Assembly (NCBI GenBank): GCA_963802585.1
Contig: CAWDJS010000008.1
Span: forward strand, 8,940 to 72,939
Length of the DNA stretch: 64,000 bases
Reading direction: 5' to 3'
Origin: an uncultured Alphaproteobacteria bacterium
GTDB lineage: Bacteria > Pseudomonadota > Alphaproteobacteria > Rhizobiales > Xanthobacteraceae
The position numbers and the translations under genes were made by a program. The notes under the pieces are model-generated. The model made no database searches. It worked only from the letters and a program-made list of their open reading frames with translations, and was not told where the DNA came from. Shown here one piece after another: positions 915 to 38,683 of the stretch (position 1 is the stretch's first letter; every line of letters starts with the position of its first letter).

Positions 915-1613
915 TCAGCTCGCGAGCTTGCGCTCCTTCGCGAACGGGCTGAGGCCGAGCCAGGTCTGCATCGAGGCGGCGAGTGACCTGCTTCCGGTCA
1001 GGACCATGCGCTGGCTCGCCACCGCGGCGCGCACGGTGTCGAGCCCCATCCAGATCGCGGTCATCGTCCGCAGGTCGACGGAAGCATAGAGATCGACATC
1101 GAAACCGGGATCGATCTTGCAGAGATCGGCGCCGGTGTCCGGATCGACCACCAGCCAGTAGCGGCGCTGCGCCGGCGGCTGGCCGGGAAACACGAACTCG
1201 ATCACGCTGCGGCTTGGCGGCAGCGGCGTGGGGTTGAGGCTGCGCCGCATGTCCCACATCAGAAGATCGGCATCGAGATGCTGCAGCGAGACATCGGCCT
1301 CGATCCGGCGCTGGCCCCAGATGCCGAAGGCTTCCACCAGCGGACCGAGCTCGCGGCCGGATTCGGTCAGATGATATTCGAACAATCTGGCATCGCCCCC
1401 TGAGGCGGCGCGCACGACGATGCCGGCCTCCTCCAATTCCTTCAGGCGGCGCGAGAGCAGCGCGGGCGACATCCGCGGTACGCCGCGGCGCAATTCATTG
1501 AAGCGCGTCGAGCCCGCGAACATTTCGCGCAACAACACGACGGTCCAGCGCGTGCACAGGATCTCCGCCGCCATCGCGACCGGACAGAACTGCTGATAGC
1601 TGGTGACACTCAT
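915..1613 (-). CDS. HxlR-family winged-helix transcriptional regulator with C-terminal extension
   Basis: YQQFCPVAMAAEILCTRWTVVLLRE...TRFNELRRGVPRMSPALLSRRLKELE...EYHLT is the HxlR signature. Confidence 0.9.
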   Translation of the reverse strand: MSVTSYQQFCPVAMAAEILCTRWTVVLLREMFAGSTRFNELRRGVPRMSPALLSRRLKELEEAGIVVRAASGGDARLFEYHLTESGRELGPLVEAFGIWGQRRIEADVSLQHLDADLLMWDMRRSLNPTPLPPSRSVIEFVFPGQPPAQRRYWLVVDPDTGADLCKIDPGFDVDLYASVDLRTMTAIWMGLDTVRAAVASQRMVLTGSRSLAASMQTWLGLSPFAKERKLAS

Positions 1614-1660
1614 GTTGCTCTCCTGATCGGCAAATCGGCTAGGCCCCGGCCGGCTTCTTT

Positions 1661-1706
1661 TCCAGTTCAGATTCTGTACCGGGCGGAGTTCACTTCCTGA
1701 ACTGGA
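1661..1706. promoter_or_regulatory. Two inverted copies of the 20-bp gfa operator motif
   Basis: TCCAGTTCAGATTCTGTACC (1661-1680) and the reverse complement of 1687-1706 (TCCAGTTCAGGAAGTGAACT). Each is 17/20 identical to 753-772. Confidence 0.6.
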
Positions 1707-1828
1707 GGCGAGCCGCCCCCTGCCCTATTTCACGGACAACGAATGCAGGGGCCTTTAAGCCCGGCCTGCGGCGAGATCGCCGCCACGTAAGGCCGCGGCC
1801 CGCGCTTTTTTCGACAAGGATCATTTCG

Positions 1829-2026
1829 ATGAATTTGGACGCACGGCATTTGGCATGGTTGATTCTGATCGCGACGCTTGGCGCCGTCATCCTCATTGGT
1901 CTTTCGCTGTCGCCGGCGGTCGCGGCGGCACTGTCGCCGGGCTATCCAGTTGACGCCATTTTGTTGGCGATGCGTGCGGTGCTCAAACGGACACGCCAGA
2001 CGCTCGCCGCCTGCCACAGAGGTTAA
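1829..2026 (+). CDS. Small hypothetical membrane protein (65 aa)
   Basis: Hydrophobic N-terminal segment LAWLILIATLGAVILIGLSL. Lies in otherwise intergenic space. Confidence 0.45.
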   Translation: MNLDARHLAWLILIATLGAVILIGLSLSPAVAAALSPGYPVDAILLAMRAVLKRTRQTLAACHRG

Positions 2027-4766: not shown

Positions 4767-6337
4767 TCTCGGCTCTCACCCACATCTCGCGGCTCGCGCG
4801 CGCCGGCTTCGTGTTCGCACACGAAGGCGTCTTTGGCGCCGTCGATCCCTCGCTGGTGCCGCCGCCCGGTCAACTCGCGCTGAAGCTCGCGCGGCTGGTC
4901 GAGCGCCGTGGCGCCAAGTCCGGGCCGAGATTGTCGCGCGCGCTGGAACGGATGGGCCCGGCCTATCTGAAGCTCGGCCAGTTCCTTGCGACCCGGCCTG
5001 ACGTGGTCGGTGTCACCATGGCGCGGGACCTCGAAGCGCTGCAGGACCGCTTGCCGCCGTTTTCGCAAAGCGAGGCGGAAGCGGCGATATCGACCTCGCT
5101 GGAACGCCCGGTATCGCAGGCCTTTGCTGCTCTCGGGCCGCCGGTCGCCGCCGCCTCGATCGCGCAGGTGCATCGCGGCGAGGTACTGCGTGACGGCGTG
5201 CGCCATCCGGTCGCGGTGAAAGTATTGCGGCCCAACGTGGCCTCGCGTTTCCGCCGCGACCTCTCCGACTTCTTCTTCGTTGCGCACAAGGCCGAAGCCT
5301 ATTCCGCGGAAGCGCGGCGACTGCGGCTGGTCGAAGTCATCAACACCATGCAGCGTTCGGTCGCGATGGAGATGGATTTGCGGCTGGAGGCCGCCGCGCT
5401 CTCCGAGATGGCCGAGAACACCCGCGACGATCCGGATTTCCGCGTGCCCGTGGTCGACTGGGACCGCACCACGCATAATGTGCTGACGATGGAGTGGATC
5501 GACGGCATTGCGCTCAGCGATCACGCCCGGCTCGAGCAGGCGCAGGTCGATTTGGCCGATCTCGGCCGCAAGGTGATCCAGAGTTTCCTGCGCCACGCAC
5601 TGCGCGACGGTTTCTTCCACGCCGACATGCATCCGGGAAATCTCTTCCTCGACAAGGAAGGCCGCCTGGTCGCGGTCGATTTCGGCATCATGGGAAGGCT
5701 GGGCCTGAAGGAGCGGCGCTTCCTCGCCGAAATCCTGCTCGGCTTCATCACCCGCAACTATCGCCGCGTCGCCGAGGTGCATTTCGAAGCGGGCTATGTG
5801 CCCTCGCATCACTCGGTGGAGAATTTCGCGCAGGCGATTCGCGCCATCGGCGAGCCGATCCACAACCGCACCGCCGAAGAAATTTCCATGGCGCGGCTGC
5901 TGACCCTGCTGCTCGAAGTCACCGGCCTGTTCGACATGCGCACGCGGCCCGAGCTGATCCTGCTGCAGAAGACCATGGTGGTGGTCGAGGGCGTGGCGCG
6001 CGGCTTCGATCCAAAACTCGACATCTGGAAGACCGCCGATCCCGTGGTGCGCGAATGGATCGAGCGCAATCTCGGGCCGCTCGGGCGGATCCAGGGCGCG
6101 GTGTCCGGCGCCGGCGAGCTGGGTCATTTGCTTTCCAAGCTGCCGGAGATCGCCAGCCGGGCGGTGACCGTGCTGCAGCAGTTGGAAGACATGACCCGGG
6201 AGGGTCACATGCTGTCGTCGGACACGATCGAGGAATTGGGGCGCAAAGAGGCGAAGAAAGCCCGTTTGAGCACGATTGCGCTCTGGGTCATCGCTGTCGC
6301 CTCCGTTGGAATTTTGATTGCCATGACCCGCCTTTGA
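4763..6337 (+). CDS. ubiB: 2-polyprenylphenol 6-hydroxylase / UbiB kinase-like protein
   Basis: [24 protein letters not shown] and [10 protein letters not shown] motifs. 4-bp overlap with ubiE. Confidence 0.96.
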
Positions 6338-6374
6338 TTGCGATGCAATCACTATAATGATAGCATTGCTGTCA
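6335..6374. promoter_or_regulatory. Two tandem 17-bp palindromes flanking TATAAT upstream of coaBC (putative RHH operators)
   Basis: TGATTGC-GAT-GCAATCA (6335-6351), TATAAT (6353-6358) and TGATAGC-ATT-GCTGTCA (6358-6374). Confidence 0.65.
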
Positions 6375-6393
6375 TTGCCGGGAGGAAGCCGTC

Positions 6394-7821
6394 ATGGCCA
6401 GCCTGACCATCCGAAAGCTCGACGACGCCGTCAAAACCTATCTCCGCCTGCGCTCGGCCGGCAATGGCCGGTCGGTCGAGGAGGAGGTCCGGGTGATCTT
6501 GGGCGAGCTGATTCAGGGCCAGCCCGAGGGGGCTGCGCTGGCGGCACCAGCTCCCGCCCGATCGCTGCAGCCCCGCAGCGGGTCCGGTGAGGCGCGCGTC
6601 ACCCTGATCATCGGCGGCGGTATTGCCGCCTACAAGGCGCTGGACCTGATCCGGCGGCTGAAGGAGCGCCACATCCGTGTCCGCTGCGTGCTGACCAGGG
6701 CCGCGACGCAATTCGTCACGCCGCTGGCGGCGAGCGCGCTGTCGGGGGAGCGGGCCTACACCGACCTGTTCGATCCCGAGAGCGAATTCGACGCTGGCCA
6801 CATCAGGCTGGCGCGTGACTGCGATTTGATCGTGGTGGCGCCCGCGACCGCAGACCTGATGTCGAAGATGGCGCATGGCGCCGCCGATGATCTCGCCAGC
6901 GCCATCCTACTCGCGGCAAGCCGGCCGATCCTGCTCGCCCCCGCCATGAACCCGGTGATGTGGAGCAATGCCGCAACCCGCCGCAACGCCGCGCAGCTCG
7001 CGCGCGACGGCGTCGCCATGGTCGGCCCGAATGCGGGCGAGATGGCGGAGCGAGGCGAAGCCGGAATCGGCCGCATGGCGGAGCCGATCGAAATTGCCGA
7101 TGCCGCCGAGCGCTTCCTGCGTCCGGTGCTGCCGCGTCCGCTCGCGGGCAAGCGCGTGCTGATTACGGCCGGCCCCACGCATGAGCCGATCGACCCCGTG
7201 CGCTATATCGCCAACCGCTCCTCCGGCAAACAGGGTTTTGCCATTGCCGCCGCCGCGCAAGCCGCGGGCGCCGACGTGGTGCTGATCTCCGGCCCGGTCG
7301 AACTCGACGATCCCAACGGCGTGCATGTCGTGCGGGTCGAATCCGCGCGCGACATGCTGAGCCGGGTGGAGGCCTCACTGCCGGCGGACATCGCGATCTT
7401 CGCCGCGGCGGTGGCCGACTGGCGCGTCGCCAGTGAAGGCGGGCAGAAGCTGAAGAAGACCGATACGGCGATGCCGCCGCTGGCGCTGGTGGAAAATCCC
7501 GACATCCTCGCCACCATCTCGCATTTGAAGGAGCGCCGGCCACCGCTGGTCATCGGCTTCGCCGCCGAGACCGAGCACCTCATCGACAATGCCAAGGCAA
7601 AACTCGCGCGCAAGGGCTGCGACTGGATTGTCGCCAACGACGTTTCGCCCGCGACCGGCGTCATGGGCGGCGACCGCAACACCGTGCATCTGCTCACCCG
7701 GCACGGCACCGAGATCGACGTCGACTCCTGGCCGGTCATGACCAAGGAGCAGGTCGCGGTGGAATTGATCGCGCATGTCGCGAAGGAATTTTCGTCCAAG
7801 AGCGCGGAGAAAACCTCTTGA
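6394..7821 (+). CDS. coaBC: Bifunctional CoaBC with an N-terminal FitA-like ribbon-helix-helix domain
   Basis: [51 protein letters not shown] and GFAAET motifs. The first ~42 aa ([11 protein letters not shown]...[12 protein letters not shown]) are RHH-like. Confidence 0.95.
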
Positions 7822-8276
7822 GCAGCGCTATCCGTGTGGATATCCGACAATTGCCGCATGGCGAAGGCTTGCCGCTACCGTCCTATCAGAGCACGCATGC
7901 GGCCGGACTCGATCTGCTGGCCGCCGTCGCCGAGAACGCGCCGCTCGTTCTCGCGCCGGGCAAGCACGCCCTGGTCCCGACCGGACTCGCCATCGCGCTG
8001 CCGGAAGGCTTCGAAGCACAGGTGCGGCCGCGTTCGGGGCTGGCCGCGAAGCACGGCGTCACCGTGCTCAATTCACCCGGCACGATCGACGCCGATTATC
8101 GCGGCGAGATCCAGGTGATCCTGATCAACCACGGCGCCGAGCCGTTTACGATCAAGCGCGGCGAGCGGATCGCGCAGATGGTGATCGCGCCCGTGGTTCA
8201 GGCCGAGCTCGTGGCGGTTGCGATGCTTTCGGACACCGATCGCGGCAGCGGCGGCTTCGGCTCAACCGGCCGCTAA
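7818..8276 (+). CDS. dut: dUTP diphosphatase
   Basis: [24 protein letters not shown] and [10 protein letters not shown] motifs. Confidence 0.97.
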
Positions 8277-31776: not shown

Positions 31777-31802
31777 AAAAAAGCCCCGGTCGTGACCGGG
31801 GC
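31777..31802 (-). terminator. Rho-independent terminator of rpsA
   Basis: Stem GCCCCGGTC/GACCGGGGC followed by a T-run on the minus strand. Confidence 0.8.
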
Positions 31803-31831
31803 CTTTGGATTCGTGACAGGTGAGCGAAAGC

Positions 31832-33544
31832 TTACTTCTCGGTAGCGCGGTTCTTGAGCGCGGTACCGAGGATGTCGCCGAGCGTCGCCCCCGAATCGGA
31901 AGAGCCGTACTGGGCGATGGCTTCCTTTTCTTCGGCGACTTCGAGCGCCTTGATGGAAACCTGCACCTTGCGGGCCTTCTTGTCGAACTGGATCACCCGC
32001 GCATCGACCTTCTCGCCGACGGCAAAGCGTTCGGCGCGCTGGTCGTTGCGGTCGCGGGCGAGCTCGCTTCGCTTGATGAAGGTGGTGAAGTCGGTACCGA
32101 CGATCTTCACCTCGATGCCGGCTTCCTTCACTTCCAGCACTTCGCAGGTGACGACCGCGCCCTTCTTGACGTCGCCGGGCTCTGCGAAGGGATCGCCTTC
32201 GAGCTGCTTGACCCCGAGGGAAATGCGCTCCTTCTCGACATCCACATCGAGGACGATGGCCTTGACCATGTCGCCCTTCTTGTAATTGTCGATGACCTGC
32301 TCGCCCGGAAGCTTCCAGTCGAGGTCGGAGAGATGGACCATGCCGTCGACGTCGCCCTCGAGGCCAAGGAACAGGCCGAACTCGGTCTTGTTCTTGACTT
32401 CGCCTTCGACGGTCGAACCGACCGGGAATTTCTCGACGAAGACTTCCCAGGGATTGCGCATGGTCTGCTTGAGACCAAGCGAGATGCGGCGCTTGACGGA
32501 ATCGACTTCCAGCACCTGCACTTCGACTTCCTGCGAGGTCGAAACGATCTTGCCGGGGTGCATGTTCTTCTTGGTCCACGACATCTCCGAGACGTGGATC
32601 AGGCCTTCGATGCCGGGCTCGAGCTCGACGAACGCGCCGTAGTCGGTGATGTTGGTGACGCGGCCATGGAAGCGGGCGTTCAGCGGATACTTCGCCTCGA
32701 TGCCCTGCCACGGATCGTCGAGCAGCTGCTTCATGCCGAGCGAGATGCGGTGCGTCTCATGGTTGATCTTGATGATCTTGACCTTCACGGTCTGGCCGAT
32801 CGTCAGCACCTCGGTCGGGTGGTTGACGCGACGCCAGGCAATGTCGGTGACATGCAGCAGGCCGTCGATGCCGCCGAGGTCGACGAACGCACCGTAATCG
32901 GTGATGTTCTTCACGACGCCGTCGATCACCTGGCCCTCTTCGAGGTTCTGCACCAGCTCCTGGCGCTGCTCGGCGCGGGTCTCTTCCAGAACCGTGCGGC
33001 GGGAGACGACGATGTTGCCGCGGCGGCGATCCATCTTGAGGATCTGAAACGGCTGCGAGTTGTTCATCAGGGGAGCCACGTCGCGGATCGGACGGATGTC
33101 CACCTGCGAGCGCGGCAGGAAGGCCACGGCGCCGTCGAGGTCGACGGTGAAGCCGCCCTTGACCTGGTTGAAGATGACACCCATGACCTTTTCGTTGCCC
33201 TGGAACGCCTTCTCGAGCTTGCCCCAGCTCTCCTCGCGGCGCGCCTTGTCGCGCGACAGCACGGCTTCGCCGAGCGCATTCTCGATACGGTCGAGGAACA
33301 CTTCGACGGTGTCGCCGACCTTCAATTCGCTTTCACGGCCGGGGCCCGAAAATTCGCGCAGCGCGACGCGGCCCTCGGTCTTCAGGCCGACGTCGATGAC
33401 GGCCATGTCCTTTTCAATCGCAACCACCGTGCCCTTGATGACGGAGCTTTCCTGAAGGTTGCCGCCAGCAAAGGACTCATCCAGCATCGCCGCGAAATCG
33501 TCGCGGCTGGGGTTGTAGGAATTTGCAGTAGCAGTCGAAGCCAT
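31832..33544 (-). CDS. rpsA: 30S ribosomal protein S1
   Basis: Repeated S1 domains (ITDYGAFV, IEGLIHVSE, RISLG). Start at MASTAT after a GGAGA RBS. Confidence 0.98.
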   Translation of the reverse strand: MASTATANSYNPSRDDFAAMLDESFAGGNLQESSVIKGTVVAIEKDMAVIDVGLKTEGRVALREFSGPGRESELKVGDTVEVFLDRIENALGEAVLSRDKARREESWGKLEKAFQGNEKVMGVIFNQVKGGFTVDLDGAVAFLPRSQVDIRPIRDVAPLMNNSQPFQILKMDRRRGNIVVSRRTVLEETRAEQRQELVQNLEEGQVIDGVVKNITDYGAFVDLGGIDGLLHVTDIAWRRVNHPTEVLTIGQTVKVKIIKINHETHRISLGMKQLLDDPWQGIEAKYPLNARFHGRVTNITDYGAFVELEPGIEGLIHVSEMSWTKKNMHPGKIVSTSQEVEVQVLEVDSVKRRISLGLKQTMRNPWEVFVEKFPVGSTVEGEVKNKTEFGLFLGLEGDVDGMVHLSDLDWKLPGEQVIDNYKKGDMVKAIVLDVDVEKERISLGVKQLEGDPFAEPGDVKKGAVVTCEVLEVKEAGIEVKIVGTDFTTFIKRSELARDRNDQRAERFAVGEKVDARVIQFDKKARKVQVSIKALEVAEEKEAIAQYGSSDSGATLGDILGTALKNRATEK

Positions 33545-33791
33545 TTGTTCTCCACTTGCGATGGTCTTGCCGGCCATTGGGGTTTGAGGGCGTATCGCTA
33601 CGTGAAGGGTCAGGGCTCGCAAAACCCGCGACGACCGCTCGTTGCATAACATGCAAGAGCGGGCCGGCAGATGCCTGCACGTTCAATACGTTGATTTTTG
33701 TCCGGCGACGGATGGTCTCGAAAATTCTGTTCGAGATATCGACCAGTCTTGAGGGCGGGAGCGGGCTCTACCTCCAGTGACGGCAGCGACG

Positions 33792-34430
33792 TTAACTCCG
33801 CTGCCGGCCCGCTCGAACGGCCTCGACAATGTCGATGGCGGCCCGGACGCCGCCTTCTATATCCAGATTGGAATTATCAAGCAAGTAAGCATCTTTTGCC
33901 GGCTTTAAAGGCGCCACGGCCCTGTTCTGGTCACGTTCGTCGCGCGCCAGGATATCGGCCAGCGCCGCCGCCTCGTCGGCCTCCTCGCCCCGGGAGCGGG
34001 CTTCCAGAGTCCGGCGATGGGCCCGGATTTTGGGATCGGCGACCACGAAAATCTTCACCTCGGCGTCCGGGCAGATCACGGTGCCGATATCGCGGCCGTC
34101 GAGGACGGCGCCGGGCGGTTTGGCGGCGAATTGGCGCTGAAACTCGACCAAAGCCTCCCGGACCTGCGGAATCGCCGAGACGACGGAAGCGGCAGTGCCC
34201 ACCTTCTGCGACTTCAGGGCGGGATTTTCGAAAGTTTCGGGGTCGAGTTCCCGGGCGGCCCGGACCGCGGCAGCCTCGTCCTTGAGCTCAGCGCCGGCGT
34301 TGATCAAGGCGTAGGCAACGGCCCGATAGATCACGCCGGTGTCGAGGTGGCGAAACCCGTAATGGATGGCGAGGCGTTTTGCGAGCGTACCCTTGCCGGA
34401 AGCGGCAGGTCCGTCGATGGCGATGATCAT
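33792..34430 (-). CDS. cmk: Cytidylate kinase
   Basis: [19 protein letters not shown] and VLDGRDIG motifs. Confidence 0.97.
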
Positions 34431-34435
34431 TCGTT

Positions 34436-34843
34436 CTATTTCCCTGCCGGCACCGGACCGCGGGCCCGTCGCAGCGGACGTTCCCCGGTGAAGATATTGC
34501 GCGAGGCAAATTCGCCGGGACTGGCGAAGCTCAGGTATTCGCGCATGGCGGGTGACGGCGATGTCGTAGTGAACCATGGATCGGAGAGACGTCGCTCTGG
34601 CCCACCCACCCAGGCAGGGACGCGGCCCAGACGGCGATTCTTGGCGAGATATTCGGCCATCGCGCCGACTAGGGCATTGAGCCTCTTATCCTGCGACAAT
34701 GGCGGCTCCCGTTCGATCGTCACGTACTTGGCATCAATGGTTGGCGCGAGATCGAACGTATCGACGAATTCTGCCAGAGCAACATCTTGCGAGACGCCGG
34801 CCGCGATTCTCTCCACCGCTTCAGCGAGGGTATTTGGGCGCAT
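34436..34843 (-). CDS. Conserved-looking hypothetical protein, partner of the upstream nucleotidyltransferase (putative antitoxin)
   Basis: 135-aa ORF with EPP..D.R..AL..A.AEYLA...VP.W....R.L..PWF and SP.EF..RNIF patterns. Overlaps the NTase end and stops 6 bp before cmk. Confidence 0.75.
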
Positions 34844-35426
34844 CTACTCCTCCCTCACGATTCATGTTCTTCAATAGAAAGCGTTGTTTCTCGGGTGACG
34901 CTGCGCTCAACGGAAAGTACTTGCTCAACAAGGCTACGGCCTCGTCGGCGGTCGAGATGCCAATTACGCGCATCAAGTTAAGTATATCCAACCGCTCGTC
35001 TTCGCCGCGAAGCGGGTCCATGATCCGAAAGGCCTTCAGCTTGAGCGCCAACAAATATTCCGCGGTAGGCACCGAAACAACGAGCCGGGGCGACGTGCCG
35101 TCGCGCGGAAAAGTTCCGAACTCCAGATGATCGTCGGCACTGTCCGCAAGCGAGCTGAGGTGAAATACGACCGCATCGTTGAACCAATCCTCCTGCCAGC
35201 CTCTTTCCCTGGCGATTTCCTGCACCGTCCTCGTCAGCCACTCCGGTAGCGGCCGCGGCAGTTCAGACACATCGACATCTTCCGTCGCGAAGCGAAAATT
35301 GCTGGCCAGCATCCGCGCCGAGCCGCCGTAGACCGCGATTTGCAGCTTCATTCCCGCCTCTACCGCCGCGCGGGCGATCCGGTCGAAGGCATCCAGCAGG
35401 GCATCGCGGCCGAGGGCAACGGTCAT
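34821..35426 (-). CDS. AbiEii/DUF6036/MenT-like nucleotidyltransferase (putative toxin)
   Basis: YGGSA, FATEDVD, WFND, EYLLALKLKA and R..DERLDI patterns match the polymerase-beta-like NTase motifs. GAGG RBS immediately after the aroA stop. Confidence 0.78.
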   Translation of the reverse strand: MTVALGRDALLDAFDRIARAAVEAGMKLQIAVYGGSARMLASNFRFATEDVDVSELPRPLPEWLTRTVQEIARERGWQEDWFNDAVVFHLSSLADSADDHLEFGTFPRDGTSPRLVVSVPTAEYLLALKLKAFRIMDPLRGEDERLDILNLMRVIGISTADEAVALLSKYFPLSAASPEKQRFLLKNMNREGGVDAPKYPR

Positions 35427-35436
35427 CGGACCTCGT

Positions 35437-36774
35437 TCACGAAAACTCCGCGCCAAGCGCGCGCATCATCGGGATGAAGTCCGGGAAACTGGTGGCGATG
35501 AAGGCGGTGTCGTCGACCTTCACGGGCTTGTCGGCCGCCAAACCCATCACCAGCGCGGACATGGCGATGCGGTGGTCCATGTGGGTTTTCACCAGGCCGC
35601 CACCCGGCACATGGCCCCTGCCCTCGACAATGAGATCGTCGCCGGAAACCTCGACCTTGACGCCGTTCACGCGCAGCATGTCGGCGGTGGCTTCCAGCCG
35701 GTCGGATTCCTTGACCCGCAACTCTTTAAGGCCGCGCATCACGGTGGTGCCTTCGGCAAAGGAGGCCGCAACCGCGAGCACCAGATATTCATCGATCATC
35801 GACGGCGCGCGCTCGGGCGGCACCTCGACGCCGCGCAGCTTCGAGGCGCGCACGCGCAATTGCGCCATCGGCTCGCCGGCATCGCCGCGCGCGGCACTTT
35901 CCTCGATCGAGGCGCCCATTTCCCGCAGGGTCGTGAACAGGCCGGTGCGCAGCGGATTGGTCATGACATCCGATAATACGAGGTCGGAACCTTCGACGAT
36001 CAGCGCCGCGACGATGGGAAACGCCGCGGAGGACGGATCGGCCGGCACCACGACCTCGGCACCGTGCAGCTCCGGTTGTCCGGTCAGCGCGATCCTGCGG
36101 CCGTGCAGGCCCTCTTTCGACGAGACGATGTTCGCGCCAAAATGCTTGAGCATCAGTTCGGTATGATCGCGGCTCGCTTCCTGCTCGATCACGGTGGTGA
36201 CGCCCGGCGCGGCGAGGCCCGCGAGCAGCACCGCCGACTTGATCTGGGCGGAAGCCACCGGCGTCCTGTAGGTGATCGGAACGGGATCATGGGCGCCGTG
36301 CAGGGTCAGCGGCAGGCGGCCGCCCTCACGTGTTTCGCCCGCCGTGGCCCCCATCAGTTCCAGGGGATCGAGGATCCGCCGCATCGGCCGGCTGCGCAGC
36401 GAGGCGTCGCCGTCGAACACCGCCGTGATCGGGCAGCCCGCCACCGCCCCCATCACCAGGCGGCAGCCGGTGCCGGAATTGCCGAAATCGAGCGGATTTT
36501 GCGGCCGGGCGAAGCCGGCTACGCCGACGCCATTGACCTTCCACGCGAAATTCCCGGTCCGTTCGACCCTGGCGCCGAGCGCTCGCATCGATTTGGCGGT
36601 GTTGAGGACGTCTTCGCCCTCCAAAAGGCCGGAAATCCGGCTTTCGCCGACCGCGAGCGCGCCCAGGATCAGGGCCCGGTGCGAAATCGACTTGTCGCCG
36701 GGAACGCGGACTTTGCCGCTCAGAGGGCCGCTGGAACGGGCTTCCAGCGGGGTCGGATGGTCGGAATCGGTCAA
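35437..36774 (-). CDS. aroA: 3-phosphoshikimate 1-carboxyvinyltransferase (EPSP synthase)
   Basis: [33 protein letters not shown] and DHRIAM motifs. TTG start after a GGAAAGGA RBS. Confidence 0.97.
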
Positions 36775-36916
36775 GATGGGGTCCTTTCCGCCGGGCCAGT
36801 AGCACGCCGACCCGGTAGCGTCACGGCCCGGTATTTCATGCACAAAGCGCTATTGACAGCGGCCTCTCAACTAGCCAAGTGAAGCACCGCTTTTCAGACA
36901 TTCCCAGGATTCCGCC

Positions 36917-37336
36917 GTGGCCAAATCCGATCTCGGAACCAAACGCATTTGCCCGACCACGGGCAAGAAATTTTACGACCTCAACAAGAGCCCGGTGATC
37001 TCGCCCTATACCGGCGAGGTCGTGCCGATTGCACCGGTCGCGCCGCCGCGCGCCTTGCGTGGCGAAGCCGCGCGCGCCCATGCCGCTGCCGCCACCGCCG
37101 AGGCTACGCCGGAGCCGGCGGAGGCCGAAGAGTTGGTGCCGCTCGAGGAAGCCGACGCCGAGGAGAACACCGGGAAGGTCAAGGCTGTTGTCCCTGAGTT
37201 CGAGGACGATATCGAGATCGACGAAACCATCGAAGACGATGATGACGACGATTCGACCTTCATCGCCGACGAGGAAGAGGGCGATGAGGATGTCACCGAC
37301 ATCATCGGCGACGTCGGCGGCGACGAAGAGACTTGA
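36917..37336 (+). CDS. TIGR02300 (FYDLN_acid) family protein
   Basis: MAKSDLGTKRICPTTGKKFYDLN followed by an acidic tail. Confidence 0.93.
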   Translation: MAKSDLGTKRICPTTGKKFYDLNKSPVISPYTGEVVPIAPVAPPRALRGEAARAHAAAATAEATPEPAEAEELVPLEEADAEENTGKVKAVVPEFEDDIEIDETIEDDDDDDSTFIADEEEGDEDVTDIIGDVGGDEET

Positions 37337-37435: not shown

Positions 37436-37511
<76 letters not shown>

Positions 37512-37640: not shown

Positions 37641-38102
37641 CTACTCCCCCACCACCTCATTCAGCCGATCCCGCAGCGCCACGATCTCGTTCTTCATCGC
37701 CGTCAGCTCCCCGACCGAGCACGCGGACGCGGACAGGATCGACATCGGCACGGCTCGTGCCTTTTCCTTCAACGCCTGCCCCTGCACCGTGAGCGCGATC
37801 AATACCTGGCGCTCGTCCTCGGTACTGCGCGTGCGCTTGATCAACTGCGCCGTCTCCAGACGCTTGAGCAACGGCGTCAGCGTGCCGGAATCCAGGAATA
37901 GCCGTTCACCGATATCCTTCAGCGGCACGCCGTCGCGCTCCCACAGCACCAGCATCACCAGGTATTGCGGATAGGTCAGGCCGAGCCGGTCCAGCAGCGG
38001 CTTGTAGACGCGGTTAAAGGCGTGCGCGGCCGAATAGACCGCAAAGCAGATCTGGTTGTCGAGCTTGAGCGGTTGGTCCGCTGCCGTCTGTTTTCGGGCC
38101 AT
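37641..38102 (-). CDS. ohrR: Organic hydroperoxide resistance repressor (MarR family)
   Basis: LDNQICFAVY (sensing Cys), LTYPQYLVM and LDSGTLTPLLKRLE motifs. Second Cys near the C-terminus. Divergent from ohr. Confidence 0.93.
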   Translation of the reverse strand: MARKQTAADQPLKLDNQICFAVYSAAHAFNRVYKPLLDRLGLTYPQYLVMLVLWERDGVPLKDIGERLFLDSGTLTPLLKRLETAQLIKRTRSTEDERQVLIALTVQGQALKEKARAVPMSILSASACSVGELTAMKNEIVALRDRLNEVVGE

Positions 38103-38257: not shown

Positions 38258-38683
38258 ATGTCCGTGAATGTGCTCTACAAGACCCAGGCCAAGGCCACCG
38301 GCGGCCGCGACGGCCACGCCGCAACGCTGGACGGCGCGCTCGATGTCAAACTCACCACGCCGAAGGAGCTCGGCGGCGGTGGCGGCGCCGGCAACAATCC
38401 CGAGCAGCTTTTCGCGGCCGGCTACGCCGCCTGCTTTATCGGGGCCATGAAGTTCGTGTCCTCCCAGGGCGGCCCGAAAGTGCCTGCCGACGCCTCGGTT
38501 ACCTCCACGGTCGGCATCGGCCCGCGCTCGGAAGGCGGTTTCGGCCTCGACATCGCGCTCGACGTCTCCCTGCCCGGCCTCTCGCGCCCAGACGCCGAAG
38601 CTCTGGTAGCCAAGGCGCACCAGGTGTGCCCCTACTCCAATGCCACGCGCGGCAATGTCGATGTGAAGCTGAACGTCGTCTAA
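38258..38683 (+). CDS. ohr: Organic hydroperoxide resistance protein
   Basis: [14 protein letters not shown] and [13 protein letters not shown] motifs. Confidence 0.97.

What the first reader, a model, noticed from the sequence alone, without database searches (positions are those of the whole stretch)
34436..35426. Nucleotidyltransferase plus partner gene wedged seamlessly into aroA-cmk-rpsA
Seen: aroA stop, a 10-bp gap with a GAGG RBS, the NTase (GGSA, TEDVD, KLKA...R..D..D), a 23-bp overlap, the 135-aa partner, a 5-bp gap, then cmk. The cassette has no promoter space and no HTH domain, and it looks slightly AT-richer than its flanks. Known: aroA-cmk are normally adjacent. AbiEii/MenT-type NTases are toxins or abortive-infection effectors, and MenT toxins block tRNA acceptor ends. 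Inferred: a promoterless, toxin-first TA-like or anti-phage module driven by an essential operon, which makes it hard to delete or silence. The partner fold is not one I can assign. The Arg in GGSAR, where a hydrophobic residue is usual, may be an attenuating change.
Basis: partly seen in the sequence, partly recalled or inferred. Interest (0 to 1): 0.66.

Follow-up and report, generated by a model that had tools for sequence, protein, structure and literature searches.

The report
MenT-like toxin pair inside aroA-cmk operon
Two extra genes sit seamlessly between the essential genes aroA and cmk of this Bradyrhizobium: an enzyme related to the tRNA-poisoning MenT/AbiEii toxins and a partner of unknown fold that most likely neutralises it. 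Relatives lose the enzyme again and again but keep the partner under selection, which a plain toxin-antitoxin model does not explain.

Summary
On the minus strand the order is aroA stop, 10 nt with GAGG, a 201-aa nucleotidyltransferase (NT, 34821-35426), a 23-nt overlap, a 135-aa partner (34436-34843), 5 nt, then cmk.

The NT belongs to the MenT/AbiEii-DUF6036 superfamily. It has GGS, T48-x-D50-x-D52, K129 and D147, and its best structural match is the toxin MenT1. The partner folds confidently but matches nothing in PDB or BFVD. The same domain also occurs with an XRE head directly upstream of such an NT, and fused HTH-partner-NT in mycobacterial proteins. So the two proteins work together.

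In 401 Bradyrhizobium species genomes about 73% have an empty site (aroA and cmk overlap in ATGA). 75 have the intact pair, 26 keep an intact partner without an intact NT, and only 1 has the reverse. The states changed at least 12 times, so the cassette is not hard to delete. Homology plus this asymmetry favour NT as toxin and partner as antitoxin, in a headless, promoterless, toxin-first variant.

One result is unexplained: orphan partners stay under purifying selection (dN/dS about 0.1) in genomes with no NT at all. This genome's NT carries a unique L38R beside GGS. Nothing has been tested experimentally.

The parts
35437..36843 (-). aroA (EPSP synthase), upstream gene of the operon. Its TGA stop lies at 35439-35437.
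   Evidence: ORF; Pfam EPSP_synthase E 2.5e-102
35427..35436 (-). 10-nt aroA-NT spacer ACGAGGTCCG, with the GAGG ribosome-binding site at 35434-35431
   Evidence: Sequence read. The same geometry is seen in all 10 first loci. A remnant, GCGAGGTCCGA, is retained in the NT-deleted relative G122.
34821..35426 (-). 201-aa nucleotidyltransferase (NT, P0001) of the MenT/AbiEii-DUF6036 superfamily; the putative toxin
   Evidence: Translation. Weak DUF6036 hit, E 0.035. Family members hit DUF6036 (34 of 52) and AbiEii (18 of 52). The family profile hits MenT1 8an4 at E 8e-5. AF2 pLDDT 92.3. Foldseek top hit is MenT1, prob 0.90. dN/dS 0.07-0.18.
35271..35327 (-). Codons for the active-site stretch G34-G35-S36-A37-R38 ... 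T48-E49-D50-V51-D52. This covers the Pol-beta GS motif, the putative phospho-acceptor Thr and the DxD metal site. R38 (35315-35313) is unique to this genome.
   Evidence: In 42 orthologues G34, G35, S36, T48 and D52 are invariant; L38 is present in 41 of 42; D50 in 40 of 42. Mapping to MenT1 T39/D41xD43 comes from the alignment and PMC11375011.
35040..35042 (-). Codon of K129, the invariant catalytic Lys equivalent to MenT1 K137. R134 and D147 follow it.
   Evidence: Invariant in the 52-member family alignment and in 42 orthologues. Aligned to the MenT1 AMKLLA...D..D segment.
34821..34856 (-). NT-partner junction: Shine-Dalgarno GGGAGGAG (about 34848-34856) inside the NT 3' end, partner ATG at 34843, and the 23-nt overlap 34821-34843
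   Evidence: The overlap is conserved in the related loci.
34436..34843 (-). 135-aa partner (P0002). It is mostly helical with no known fold, and is the putative antitoxin or regulatory domain of the NT.
   Evidence: Translation. No hit in Pfam, NCBIfam, PADLOC, PHROGs or PDB sequences. AF2 pLDDT 90.5. No Foldseek match in PDB or BFVD. The homologous domain occurs fused to an NT (E 1e-23) and with an XRE head upstream of an NT. dN/dS 0.07-0.17.
34431..34435 (-). 5-nt partner-cmk spacer (AACGA)
33792..34430 (-). cmk (cytidylate kinase), downstream gene
   Evidence: Pfam Cytidylate_kin E 1e-56
31779..33652 (-). rpsA (ribosomal protein S1) and the intrinsic terminator at 31806-31779 that ends the operon
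   Evidence: ORF; terminator with a 12-bp stem and T tract

Best explanation
The two genes form a toxin-antitoxin-like module of the MenT/AbiEii nucleotidyltransferase superfamily (DUF6036 branch). It is an unusual 'stripped' form: toxin first, antitoxin second, with no promoter and no DNA-binding head. It is transcribed and translationally coupled as part of the aroA-cmk-rpsA operon.

Shown:
- The NT has the fold and every catalytic residue of MenT1.
- The partner is a distinct conserved domain that always accompanies this NT family, as a separate downstream gene, as an XRE-headed upstream gene, or fused to the NT.
- The NT is never kept without the partner, whereas the partner is often kept without the NT.

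Inferred:
- The NT adds nucleotides to tRNA 3' ends, or to another RNA, and arrests growth.
- The partner binds and neutralises it, possibly by inducing auto-phosphorylation of T48 as MenA1 does for MenT1 T39.
- Because the host operon supplies transcription, the autoregulatory HTH head seen in relatives is dispensable.
- The cassette is old at this site, at family level, and is being lost lineage by lineage, NT first.
- In this genome the NT may already be attenuated by L38R.
- The partner must also have a role that does not need the NT.
For: - Family placement: alignment A1 motifs; Pfam DUF6036 and AbiEii hits of family members; the family profile hits MenT1 8an4 at E 8e-5, aligning T-x-D-x-D and K...D..D; Foldseek top three hits are MenT1 and MenAT1.
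- MenT1 functional residues are T39, D41, D43, K137 and D152 (PMC11375011). Their equivalents T48, D50, D52, K129 and D147 are conserved.
- Obligate pairing: all 15 paralogous NT loci in Bradyrhizobium have the partner immediately downstream. So does a distant alphaproteobacterium (L090). An XRE-partner gene overlaps the start of an NT gene by 4 nt (L103). A 359-aa HTH-partner-NT fusion is conserved in 86 protein clusters of mycobacteria.
- Loss asymmetry in 401 genomes: 75 intact pairs, 26 with an intact partner but no intact NT, and 1 the other way round; binomial p 4e-7.
- NT deletions left at least four different junctions.
- NT active-site substitutions D50A and D50H occur in two orthologues, and L38R occurs here.
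- Plasmid copies in Rhizobium, Methylorubrum and Azospirillum have a full partner but only NT fragments.
- Some paralogous pairs lie beside a VapC-type PIN gene, a transposase and another MNT gene.
- Deeply divergent cassette alleles (56% aa identity) sit between flanks that are 88-89% identical in nucleotides.
Against: - No toxicity, binding or tRNA data exist for any member of this branch.
- P0001 itself scores below the Pfam cut-off for DUF6036 (14.3 against 23.6 bits) and gives no AbiEii hit. Foldseek TM-scores to MenT1 are low, 0.33-0.37.
- Orphan partners remain under purifying selection as strong as in pairs: dN/dS 0.07-0.14 with dS up to 0.87. In 18 of 21 such genomes no NT-family gene exists anywhere. 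A pure antitoxin should decay in that situation.
- One genome (G403) has an apparently intact NT beside a partner with a 1-nt insertion.
- Synteny at one site across 9 genera, with dN/dS about 0.1 for both genes, is more stable than is typical for selfish TA modules.
- A permanent partner-NT fusion in mycobacteria fits a regulatory domain at least as well as a classical antitoxin.
Confidence: 0.55

Rival explanations
1. Partner-centred module. The partner is a free-standing protein with its own cellular function, somehow useful next to aroA, cmk and rpsA. The NT is a non-toxic, optional accessory that modifies or regulates the partner or acts with it. NT-only genomes are then missing because the NT is useless alone, not because it is lethal.
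For: - Orphan partners show dN/dS 0.07-0.14 after NT loss.
- 18 of 21 partner-only genomes have no NT-family gene anywhere.
- Partner-only paralogues occur at other loci (L078-L080, L086, L087).
- The cassette is syntenic across 9 genera.
- The mycobacterial fusion puts both in one chain.
- G403 has an intact NT with a frameshifted partner.
Against: - The NT has every catalytic residue of proven toxins, including the phospho-acceptor Thr used for neutralisation.
- XRE-headed partners directly upstream of the NT have the classical type II antitoxin architecture.
- Most of the genus, about 73%, lacks both genes, so the partner's function is dispensable.
- No fold or family hint points to any enzymatic or binding function for the partner.
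Confidence: 0.2
2. Abortive-infection or anti-phage system. The partner domain holds the NT inactive and releases it when it senses a phage component, in the way fused toxin-antitoxin defence proteins work. The operon position only supplies constitutive expression.
For: - AbiEii, a relative of the NT, belongs to a proven abortive-infection system (PMC11375011).
- The fused HTH-partner-NT architecture on mycobacterial plasmids resembles single-chain toxin-antitoxin sensors.
- Two deeply divergent alleles sit at one locus in close relatives.
- The distribution is patchy.
Against: - No hit in PADLOC, PHROGs or 50,697 phage genomes.
- The site is not in a defence island; the flanks are housekeeping genes.
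- A partner alone, as in 26 genomes, could not defend yet is still conserved.
Confidence: 0.15
3. Reverse polarity, like type VII HEPN-MNT. The helical partner would be the toxin, and the NT the antitoxin that nucleotidylylates it.
For: The gene layout resembles MNT-HEPN pairs: a small NTase gene first, overlapping a helical partner of about 130 aa.
Against: - The partner has no invariant His and no Rx4-6H motif.
- It has no HEPN fold match, although many HEPN structures are in the PDB.
- 26 genomes keep the partner without a working NT, and 18 of 21 tested have no NT of the family at all. That would leave a toxin unneutralised inside an essential operon.
- The NT is closest to toxins of the MenT type, not to MNT antitoxins.
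Confidence: 0.05
4. These are ordinary housekeeping genes of the aroA-cmk-rpsA operon.
For: They are co-oriented and tightly coupled to essential genes, under purifying selection, and at the same site in several genera.
Against: They are absent from about 73% of Bradyrhizobium species, where aroA and cmk overlap directly. They are absent from 348 of 350 other Alphaproteobacteria sampled. Pseudogenes and deletions are frequent.
Confidence: 0.03

Closest known systems
MenAT1 (MenA1 Rv0078B / MenT1 Rv0078A) of Mycobacterium tuberculosis; structures 8AN4, 8AN5, 8RR5
   Same: - A compact NTase of about 200 aa, and the best structural and profile match to this NT.
- It shares the GG[S] motif, T-x-D-x-D with the phospho-acceptor Thr, the catalytic Lys and the C-terminal D..D.
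- Its partner is a small protein without a DNA-binding domain.
   Different: - About 14% sequence identity.
- MenA1 is a 68-aa helical hairpin encoded upstream. Here the partner is a 135-aa globular domain of unrelated sequence with no fold match, encoded downstream.
- There is no promoter of its own.
- tRNA modification and auto-phosphorylation are proven for MenT1 and only inferred here.
AbiEi/AbiEii (Streptococcus agalactiae, Lactococcus) and MenAT3/MenAT4 (COG5340-DUF1814 pairs)
   Same: The four NTase motifs are shared, and family members hit Pfam AbiEii at up to E 3e-10. It is a two-gene, overlapping module.
   Different: - AbiEii and MenT3 are larger (DUF1814). P0001 itself does not reach PF08843.
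- The antitoxin there is a winged-HTH COG5340 protein encoded upstream that autoregulates the operon. Here there is no HTH and no promoter, and the order is reversed.
Uncharacterised DUF6036-type nucleotidyltransferase cassettes with the same partner domain: the XRE-HTH+partner gene upstream of an NT (P0476, L103) and the fused HTH-partner-NT proteins of mycobacterial plasmids (e.g. WP_007172361.1 on pMK12478)
   Same: Both domains are homologous. In the fusion the partner profile scores E 1e-23 over aa 60-174 and the NT profile E 5e-40 over aa 188-358. In L103 the NT profile scores E 3e-46. This is the true family of the window's pair.
   Different: In those relatives the partner carries a DNA-binding head and precedes or is fused to the NT. 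They lie on plasmids or in variable DNA beside ParDE. The Bradyrhizobium form is headless, toxin-first and embedded in a housekeeping operon. None has been tested experimentally.
HEPN-MNT type VII toxin-antitoxin pairs
   Same: The layout is similar: a small Pol-beta-type NTase gene followed by an overlapping helical protein of about 130 aa.
   Different: The partner lacks the Rx4-6H motif and the HEPN fold. The pattern of gene loss points to the NT, not the partner, as the harmful component.

Membership tests
MenT/AbiEii (DUF1814-type) nucleotidyltransferase toxins | Pol-beta NTase motif I, hG[GS] | tested here: met
   Y33-G34-G35-S36 is invariant in 42 orthologues and nearly invariant in the 52-member family alignment.
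MenT/AbiEii (DUF1814-type) nucleotidyltransferase toxins | Metal-binding DxD (motif II), preceded by the Ser/Thr phospho-acceptor (MenT1 T39-R-D41-V-D43) | tested here: met
   T48-E-D50-V-D52 aligns with MenT1 T-R-D-V-D in the profile alignment. T48 and D52 are invariant and D50 is present in 40 of 42 orthologues. Residue roles are taken from PMC11375011.
MenT/AbiEii (DUF1814-type) nucleotidyltransferase toxins | C-terminal motifs III/IV: catalytic Lys in hhAhKhhA, followed by R...D..D | tested here: met
   L-A-L-K129-L-K-A-F-R134 ... E144-R-L-D147. K129 is invariant in the family. This segment aligns with MenT1 K137...D149..D152. Position 144 is Glu in 35 and Asp in 7 of 42 orthologues.
MenT/AbiEii (DUF1814-type) nucleotidyltransferase toxins | Match to Pfam PF08843 (AbiEii) above the curated cut-off | tested here: not met
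   P0001 gives no AbiEii hit at E<=1. Only 18 of 52 distant family members match at E<=0.01. This is a relation at superfamily level only.
MenT/AbiEii (DUF1814-type) nucleotidyltransferase toxins | MenT-like three-dimensional fold | tested here: inconclusive
MenT/AbiEii (DUF1814-type) nucleotidyltransferase toxins | Growth inhibition on expression, and nucleotide addition to tRNA 3' ends | not testable with these tools
   This needs expression, tRNA 3'-end sequencing and in-vitro assays.
MenT/AbiEii (DUF1814-type) nucleotidyltransferase toxins | Cognate antitoxin of a known MenA/AbiEi family, encoded upstream | tested here: not met
   The partner lies downstream. It has no Pfam, NCBIfam or PDB relative and no fold match, including to AbiEi or MenA1 entries.
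Pfam DUF6036 (PF19502) | Score above the gathering threshold (23.6 bits) | tested here: not met
   P0001 scores 14.3 bits, E 0.035. 34 of 52 relatives match at E<=0.01. The fused mycobacterial homologue scores 20.3 bits, yet RefSeq names it 'DUF6036 family'. The window's NT is therefore a peripheral member or sister of DUF6036.
Type II toxin-antitoxin module (autoregulated, HTH antitoxin) | Own promoter, and a DNA-binding antitoxin that represses it | tested here: not met
   The partner has no HTH. The spacers are 10 nt and 5 nt, and there is no promoter-like site on the coding strand. Relatives of the partner domain do carry an XRE head (P0476: HTH_3 E 9e-12).
Type II toxin-antitoxin module (autoregulated, HTH antitoxin) | The toxin is not maintained without its antitoxin, while orphan antitoxins are tolerated | tested here: met
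   26 genomes have an intact partner without an intact NT, against 1 with the reverse, among 401 genomes (p 4e-7). Among paralogous loci there are 0 NT-only and 6 partner-only.
HEPN-MNT (type VII) | The partner is a HEPN domain with an Rx4-6H motif | tested here: not met
   The invariant partner residues include no His. There is no HEPN hit in the PDB fold search.
Known anti-phage defence systems (PADLOC-DB) | Match to a defence-system protein model | tested here: not met
   No hit for either protein at E<=1.

The most novel reading that the evidence does not exclude
The 'partner' is not merely an antidote. It would be a new-fold, free-standing protein with its own selected function, kept for long periods in genomes that have no nucleotidyltransferase of this family. 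The MenT-like enzyme would be an optional add-on that the partner controls. The aroA-cmk cassette would then be a domesticated regulatory switch of an essential translation and nucleotide operon. For example, it could be a reversible brake on tRNA 3' ends, gated by the partner through Thr48 auto-phosphorylation, rather than a selfish toxin-antitoxin element. The partner domain would be a general controller of DUF6036 enzymes that can work headless, XRE-headed or fused.
Probability: 0.25. Interest if true: 0.75.

Novelty: new variant of a known kind. Interest (0 to 1): 0.55.

Why it matters
MenT/AbiEii nucleotidyltransferases are a large toxin family, and their antitoxins are strikingly diverse. 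The DUF6036 branch has no tested member.

This locus gives that branch a defined partner domain with no known fold. The domain appears in three architectures: headless downstream, XRE-headed upstream, and fused. That is a Rosetta-stone argument that the two proteins act on each other.

The locus is also a natural experiment. One chromosomal site, in one genus, shows pair, partner-only and empty states that changed many times. The states can be compared directly in isogenic laboratory strains.

If the toxin model is confirmed, it would show that such a module can dispense with its own promoter and repressor by living inside an essential operon. It would also show that this does not protect the module from loss.

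The conserved orphan partners raise a testable question about what 'antitoxins' do when no toxin is left.

Tried and rejected
- The search for related loci with family alignments A1 and A2 failed because no conserved 7-10-column stretch was found. The genome search was used instead.
- A chimeric aroA-C-terminus plus cmk query, meant to measure the aroA-cmk distance in all 401 genomes, returned a truncated match table. Only its 30 loci were used.
- Apparent NT-partner 'fusions' among metagenomic cluster representatives (P0279, P0318, P0348, P0378) are garbled, frame-shifted translations and were discarded. The mycobacterial fusion is different: it is annotated in complete RefSeq plasmids and conserved in 86 clusters.
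- NCBIfam, PADLOC, PHROGs, phage genomes and sequence searches of the PDB gave nothing for either protein.
- The HEPN idea for the partner was rejected.
- 'Recent insertion of a mobile cassette' was rejected. No repeats or integrase are involved, and the cassette is at the same site in other genera.
- One dN/dS pair (aroA, L010/L036) gave a nonsensical value because of a frame problem and was ignored.
Full report
ANATOMY. All genes of interest lie on the minus strand. aroA (35437-36843; EPSP synthase, Pfam E 2.5e-102) ends in TGA. Ten bases follow (ACGAGGTCCG, containing GAGG), and then the ATG of a 201-aa protein (P0001, 34821-35426). The ATG of a 135-aa protein (P0002, 34436-34843) lies 23 nt before the P0001 stop, behind a GGGAGGAG Shine-Dalgarno. 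Five bases after the P0002 TAG stop, cmk starts (33792-34430; cytidylate kinase, E 1e-56). rpsA and a strong terminator at 31806-31779 follow. No sigma-70-like site is found on the coding strand. The cassette is somewhat AT-richer than its flanks: GC3 is 0.66-0.71 against 0.76-0.84.

THE ENZYME. P0001 alone gives only a sub-threshold DUF6036 hit (E 0.035). It gives nothing in NCBIfam, PADLOC, PHROGs or PDB sequences. An exhaustive search finds 772 clusters at 50% identity. An alignment of 52 diverse full-length members (A1) shows the motifs YGGSA, T-x-D-V-D, W..DWLND and Y.LAMK..A.R...D..D.

Of these members, 34 hit DUF6036, 18 hit AbiEii and 5 hit DUF2204. The family profile hits the toxin MenT1 (8an4) at E 8e-5. 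That alignment places T-x-D-x-D on MenT1 T-R-D-V-D, and K...D..D on the MenT1 AMKLL...D..D segment. The AlphaFold model is confident (pLDDT 92.3). Its three best PDB matches are MenAT1 and MenT1 chains (prob 0.84-0.90), although with low TM-scores.

In MenT1, T39 is the phospho-acceptor used for neutralisation, D41xD43 binds metal, and K137 and D152 are catalytic (PMC11375011). The equivalents here are T48, D50/D52, K129 and D147. They are invariant or nearly so in 42 orthologues. The enzyme is thus a MenT/AbiEii-superfamily nucleotidyltransferase on the DUF6036 branch, with a complete active site. It evolves under purifying selection (dN/dS 0.07-0.18).

THE PARTNER. P0002 has no hit in any family library or in PDB sequences, alone or as a 27-member profile. 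It folds confidently (pLDDT 90.5, mostly helical). It has no significant Foldseek match in the PDB or in BFVD. It lacks a conserved His, so it is not HEPN.

The same domain was found in two other architectures. On mycobacterial plasmids such as pMK12478, a 359-aa protein annotated 'DUF6036 family nucleotidyltransferase' has three parts: an N-terminal HTH-like segment, the partner domain (aa 60-174, E 1e-23) and the NT domain (aa 188-358, E 5e-40). This fusion is conserved in 86 protein clusters of Mycobacterium, Mycolicibacterium, Mycolicibacter and Mycobacteroides. Separately, a 201-aa protein (P0476) carries an XRE HTH (HTH_3, E 9e-12) followed by the partner domain. Its gene overlaps by 4 nt the start of an NT-family gene (A1 profile E 3e-46).

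The Bradyrhizobium partner is therefore the 'headless' form of a domain that in other lineages has the classical architecture of a DNA-binding antitoxin, or is covalently joined to the enzyme. This fits the absence of a promoter here. The host operon supplies transcription, so an autoregulatory head is not needed (inference).

DISTRIBUTION AND DYNAMICS. Among 401 species-level genomes of the genus, there are 75 intact pairs at this locus. Twenty genomes have an intact partner and no NT. Six have an intact partner beside a broken NT (stops, frameshifts, truncation). One has an intact NT beside a partner with a 1-nt insertion (G403). A few hold only remnants, and about 293 have neither gene. The 26:1 asymmetry has binomial p 4e-7.

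Every orthologue locus that was inspected lies between aroA and cmk with the same spacers and overlap. Empty sites show the aroA TGA overlapping the cmk ATG as ATGA. Partner-only sites show a clean loss of the NT, with at least four different junctions (17, 24-25, 33 and 39 nt). One of them still carries the aroA-NT ribosome-binding spacer.

On an aroA+cmk tree of 63 genomes the three states are thoroughly intermixed. Well-supported branches alone force at least 12 changes. The window's own small clade contains all three states. Close relatives (flanks 88-89% identical) can carry cassette alleles that are only 56% identical in protein.

The cassette is also present at the same site in 8 other genera of the family (aroA 70-75% identical). 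Two of those copies have frameshifted NTs beside intact partners. It is almost absent from the rest of the Alphaproteobacteria (2 of 350). The cassette is therefore old at this site and is being lost repeatedly, NT first. It is clearly not 'hard to delete'.

THE SAME RULE ELSEWHERE. Distant paralogous pairs (33-38% identity) occur at other loci in Bradyrhizobium. All 15 NT paralogues have a partner immediately downstream. Six loci have a partner only, one of them with an NT stub. None has an NT only. Some of these pairs lie beside a PIN toxin gene, a transposase and another MNT gene; others lie between metabolic genes. Plasmid copies in Rhizobium sp. BG4, Methylorubrum extorquens AM1 and Azospirillum ramasamyi all have a full-length partner but only NT fragments. 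In Azospirillum a TnpB element sits between them.

INTERPRETATION. Three lines of evidence make a toxin-antitoxin-like relation the best explanation, with NT as the harmful enzyme and the partner as its neutraliser. They are the homology to proven toxins with all functional residues, the obligate association with one partner domain in three architectures, and the one-sided pattern of loss. I give this about 55%.

The target (tRNA 3' ends) and the mode of neutralisation (binding, perhaps with induced auto-phosphorylation of T48) are inferred by analogy with MenT1/MenA1. They are not shown.

This genome's NT has Arg at position 38, where 41 of 42 orthologues have Leu. The position is two residues after the GGS motif. 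Two other orthologues have D50A or D50H.

WHAT DOES NOT FIT. In three independent lineages that share an NT deletion, the partner has continued to evolve with dN/dS 0.07-0.14 over dS 0.34-0.87. That is the same as in pair-bearing lineages, where it is 0.07-0.17. A profile search finds no NT-family gene anywhere in 18 of 21 partner-only genomes. An antitoxin with no toxin to neutralise should decay. The partner therefore very probably has a function of its own, or protects against NT enzymes that arrive from outside.

Three further observations keep a 'partner-centred' or regulatory reading alive (about 20-25%). They are the long-term synteny, the mycobacterial fusion, and the single G403 case.

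An anti-phage role remains possible but has no direct support. Reverse polarity of the HEPN-MNT type, and a housekeeping role, are contradicted by the data.

NOVELTY AND SCORE. The enzyme class is known. The partner domain, the headless toxin-first promoterless layout inside aroA-cmk-rpsA, and the three-state polymorphism with conserved orphan partners are new variations. Earlier notes of this scan list many DUF6036-like NT cassettes with other partners. The general theme therefore recurs, although it has not been tested experimentally. I rate the finding as a new variant of a known kind, with interest 0.55.

LIMITS. There is no model of the complex, because the structure jobs were exhausted. 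The state counts rest on tblastn or HMM matches in draft genomes of varying quality. The loci used for the tree were the best-scoring ones, not a random sample.

Noticed in passing
L094 (G004), L095 (G094), L096 (G159), L097 (G150), L099 (G257); the site corresponding to window 34431-34435: In some Bradyrhizobium genomes a further 0.8-1.4 kb lies between the partner (or aroA) and cmk. It carries an opposite-strand gene with a Tat-like signal and the sequence 'WPSKPIKII', which looks like a Bug/TctC-type solute-binding protein (not checked against Pfam). In G150 and G257 a duplicated fragment of the aroA 3' end follows the partner. The aroA-cmk junction is thus a more general variable spot.
   Followed up: partly
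L093 (G403:C5), 1590-2010 minus strand: This is the only genome with an apparently intact NT (all catalytic residues present) beside a partner disrupted by a 1-nt insertion (GAG-T-CGCGAG) after codon 44. It could be a real pseudogene or an assembly error. It is a counter-example to NT lethality.
   Followed up: partly
L006 (G005) and L004 (G006), NT codon 50: Two otherwise intact NT orthologues carry D50A or D50H in the metal-binding DxD. These are probable inactivating point mutations.
   Followed up: partly
L101 (Mycobacterium kansasii plasmid pMK12478), 2704-3783: A conserved 359-aa single-chain HTH + partner domain + DUF6036 NT protein, next to a ParDE pair. RefSeq annotates the whole protein simply as a 'DUF6036 family nucleotidyltransferase', so the partner domain in it is unannotated.
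   Followed up: partly
L091 (G543, another alphaproteobacterial family), 811-2341: Here a partner-like region lies upstream of the NT. Two separate stretches of the 327-aa upstream frame match the partner profile (aa 15-107 and 231-305). This is another gene order for the same pair, possibly with a duplicated partner domain.
   Followed up: no
window 36917-37336 (+), 37436-37511 (+), 37641-38102 (-), 38258-38683 (+): Upstream of aroA and divergent from it lies a FYDLN_acid family zinc-ribbon protein (Pfam E 9e-28), followed by tRNA-Ala(GGC). Then come what look like a MarR/OhrR-type regulator and an Ohr/OsmC-type peroxidase; these last two were judged by eye from the translations and not searched.
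   Followed up: partly
L069 (G232:C3), 6230-6613 and 7337-8134: One paralogous NT-partner pair lies in a low-GC3 stretch, next to a second minimal nucleotidyltransferase (NTP_transf_2) and a DDE transposase. This looks like a small islet of toxin-antitoxin and mobile genes.
   Followed up: no
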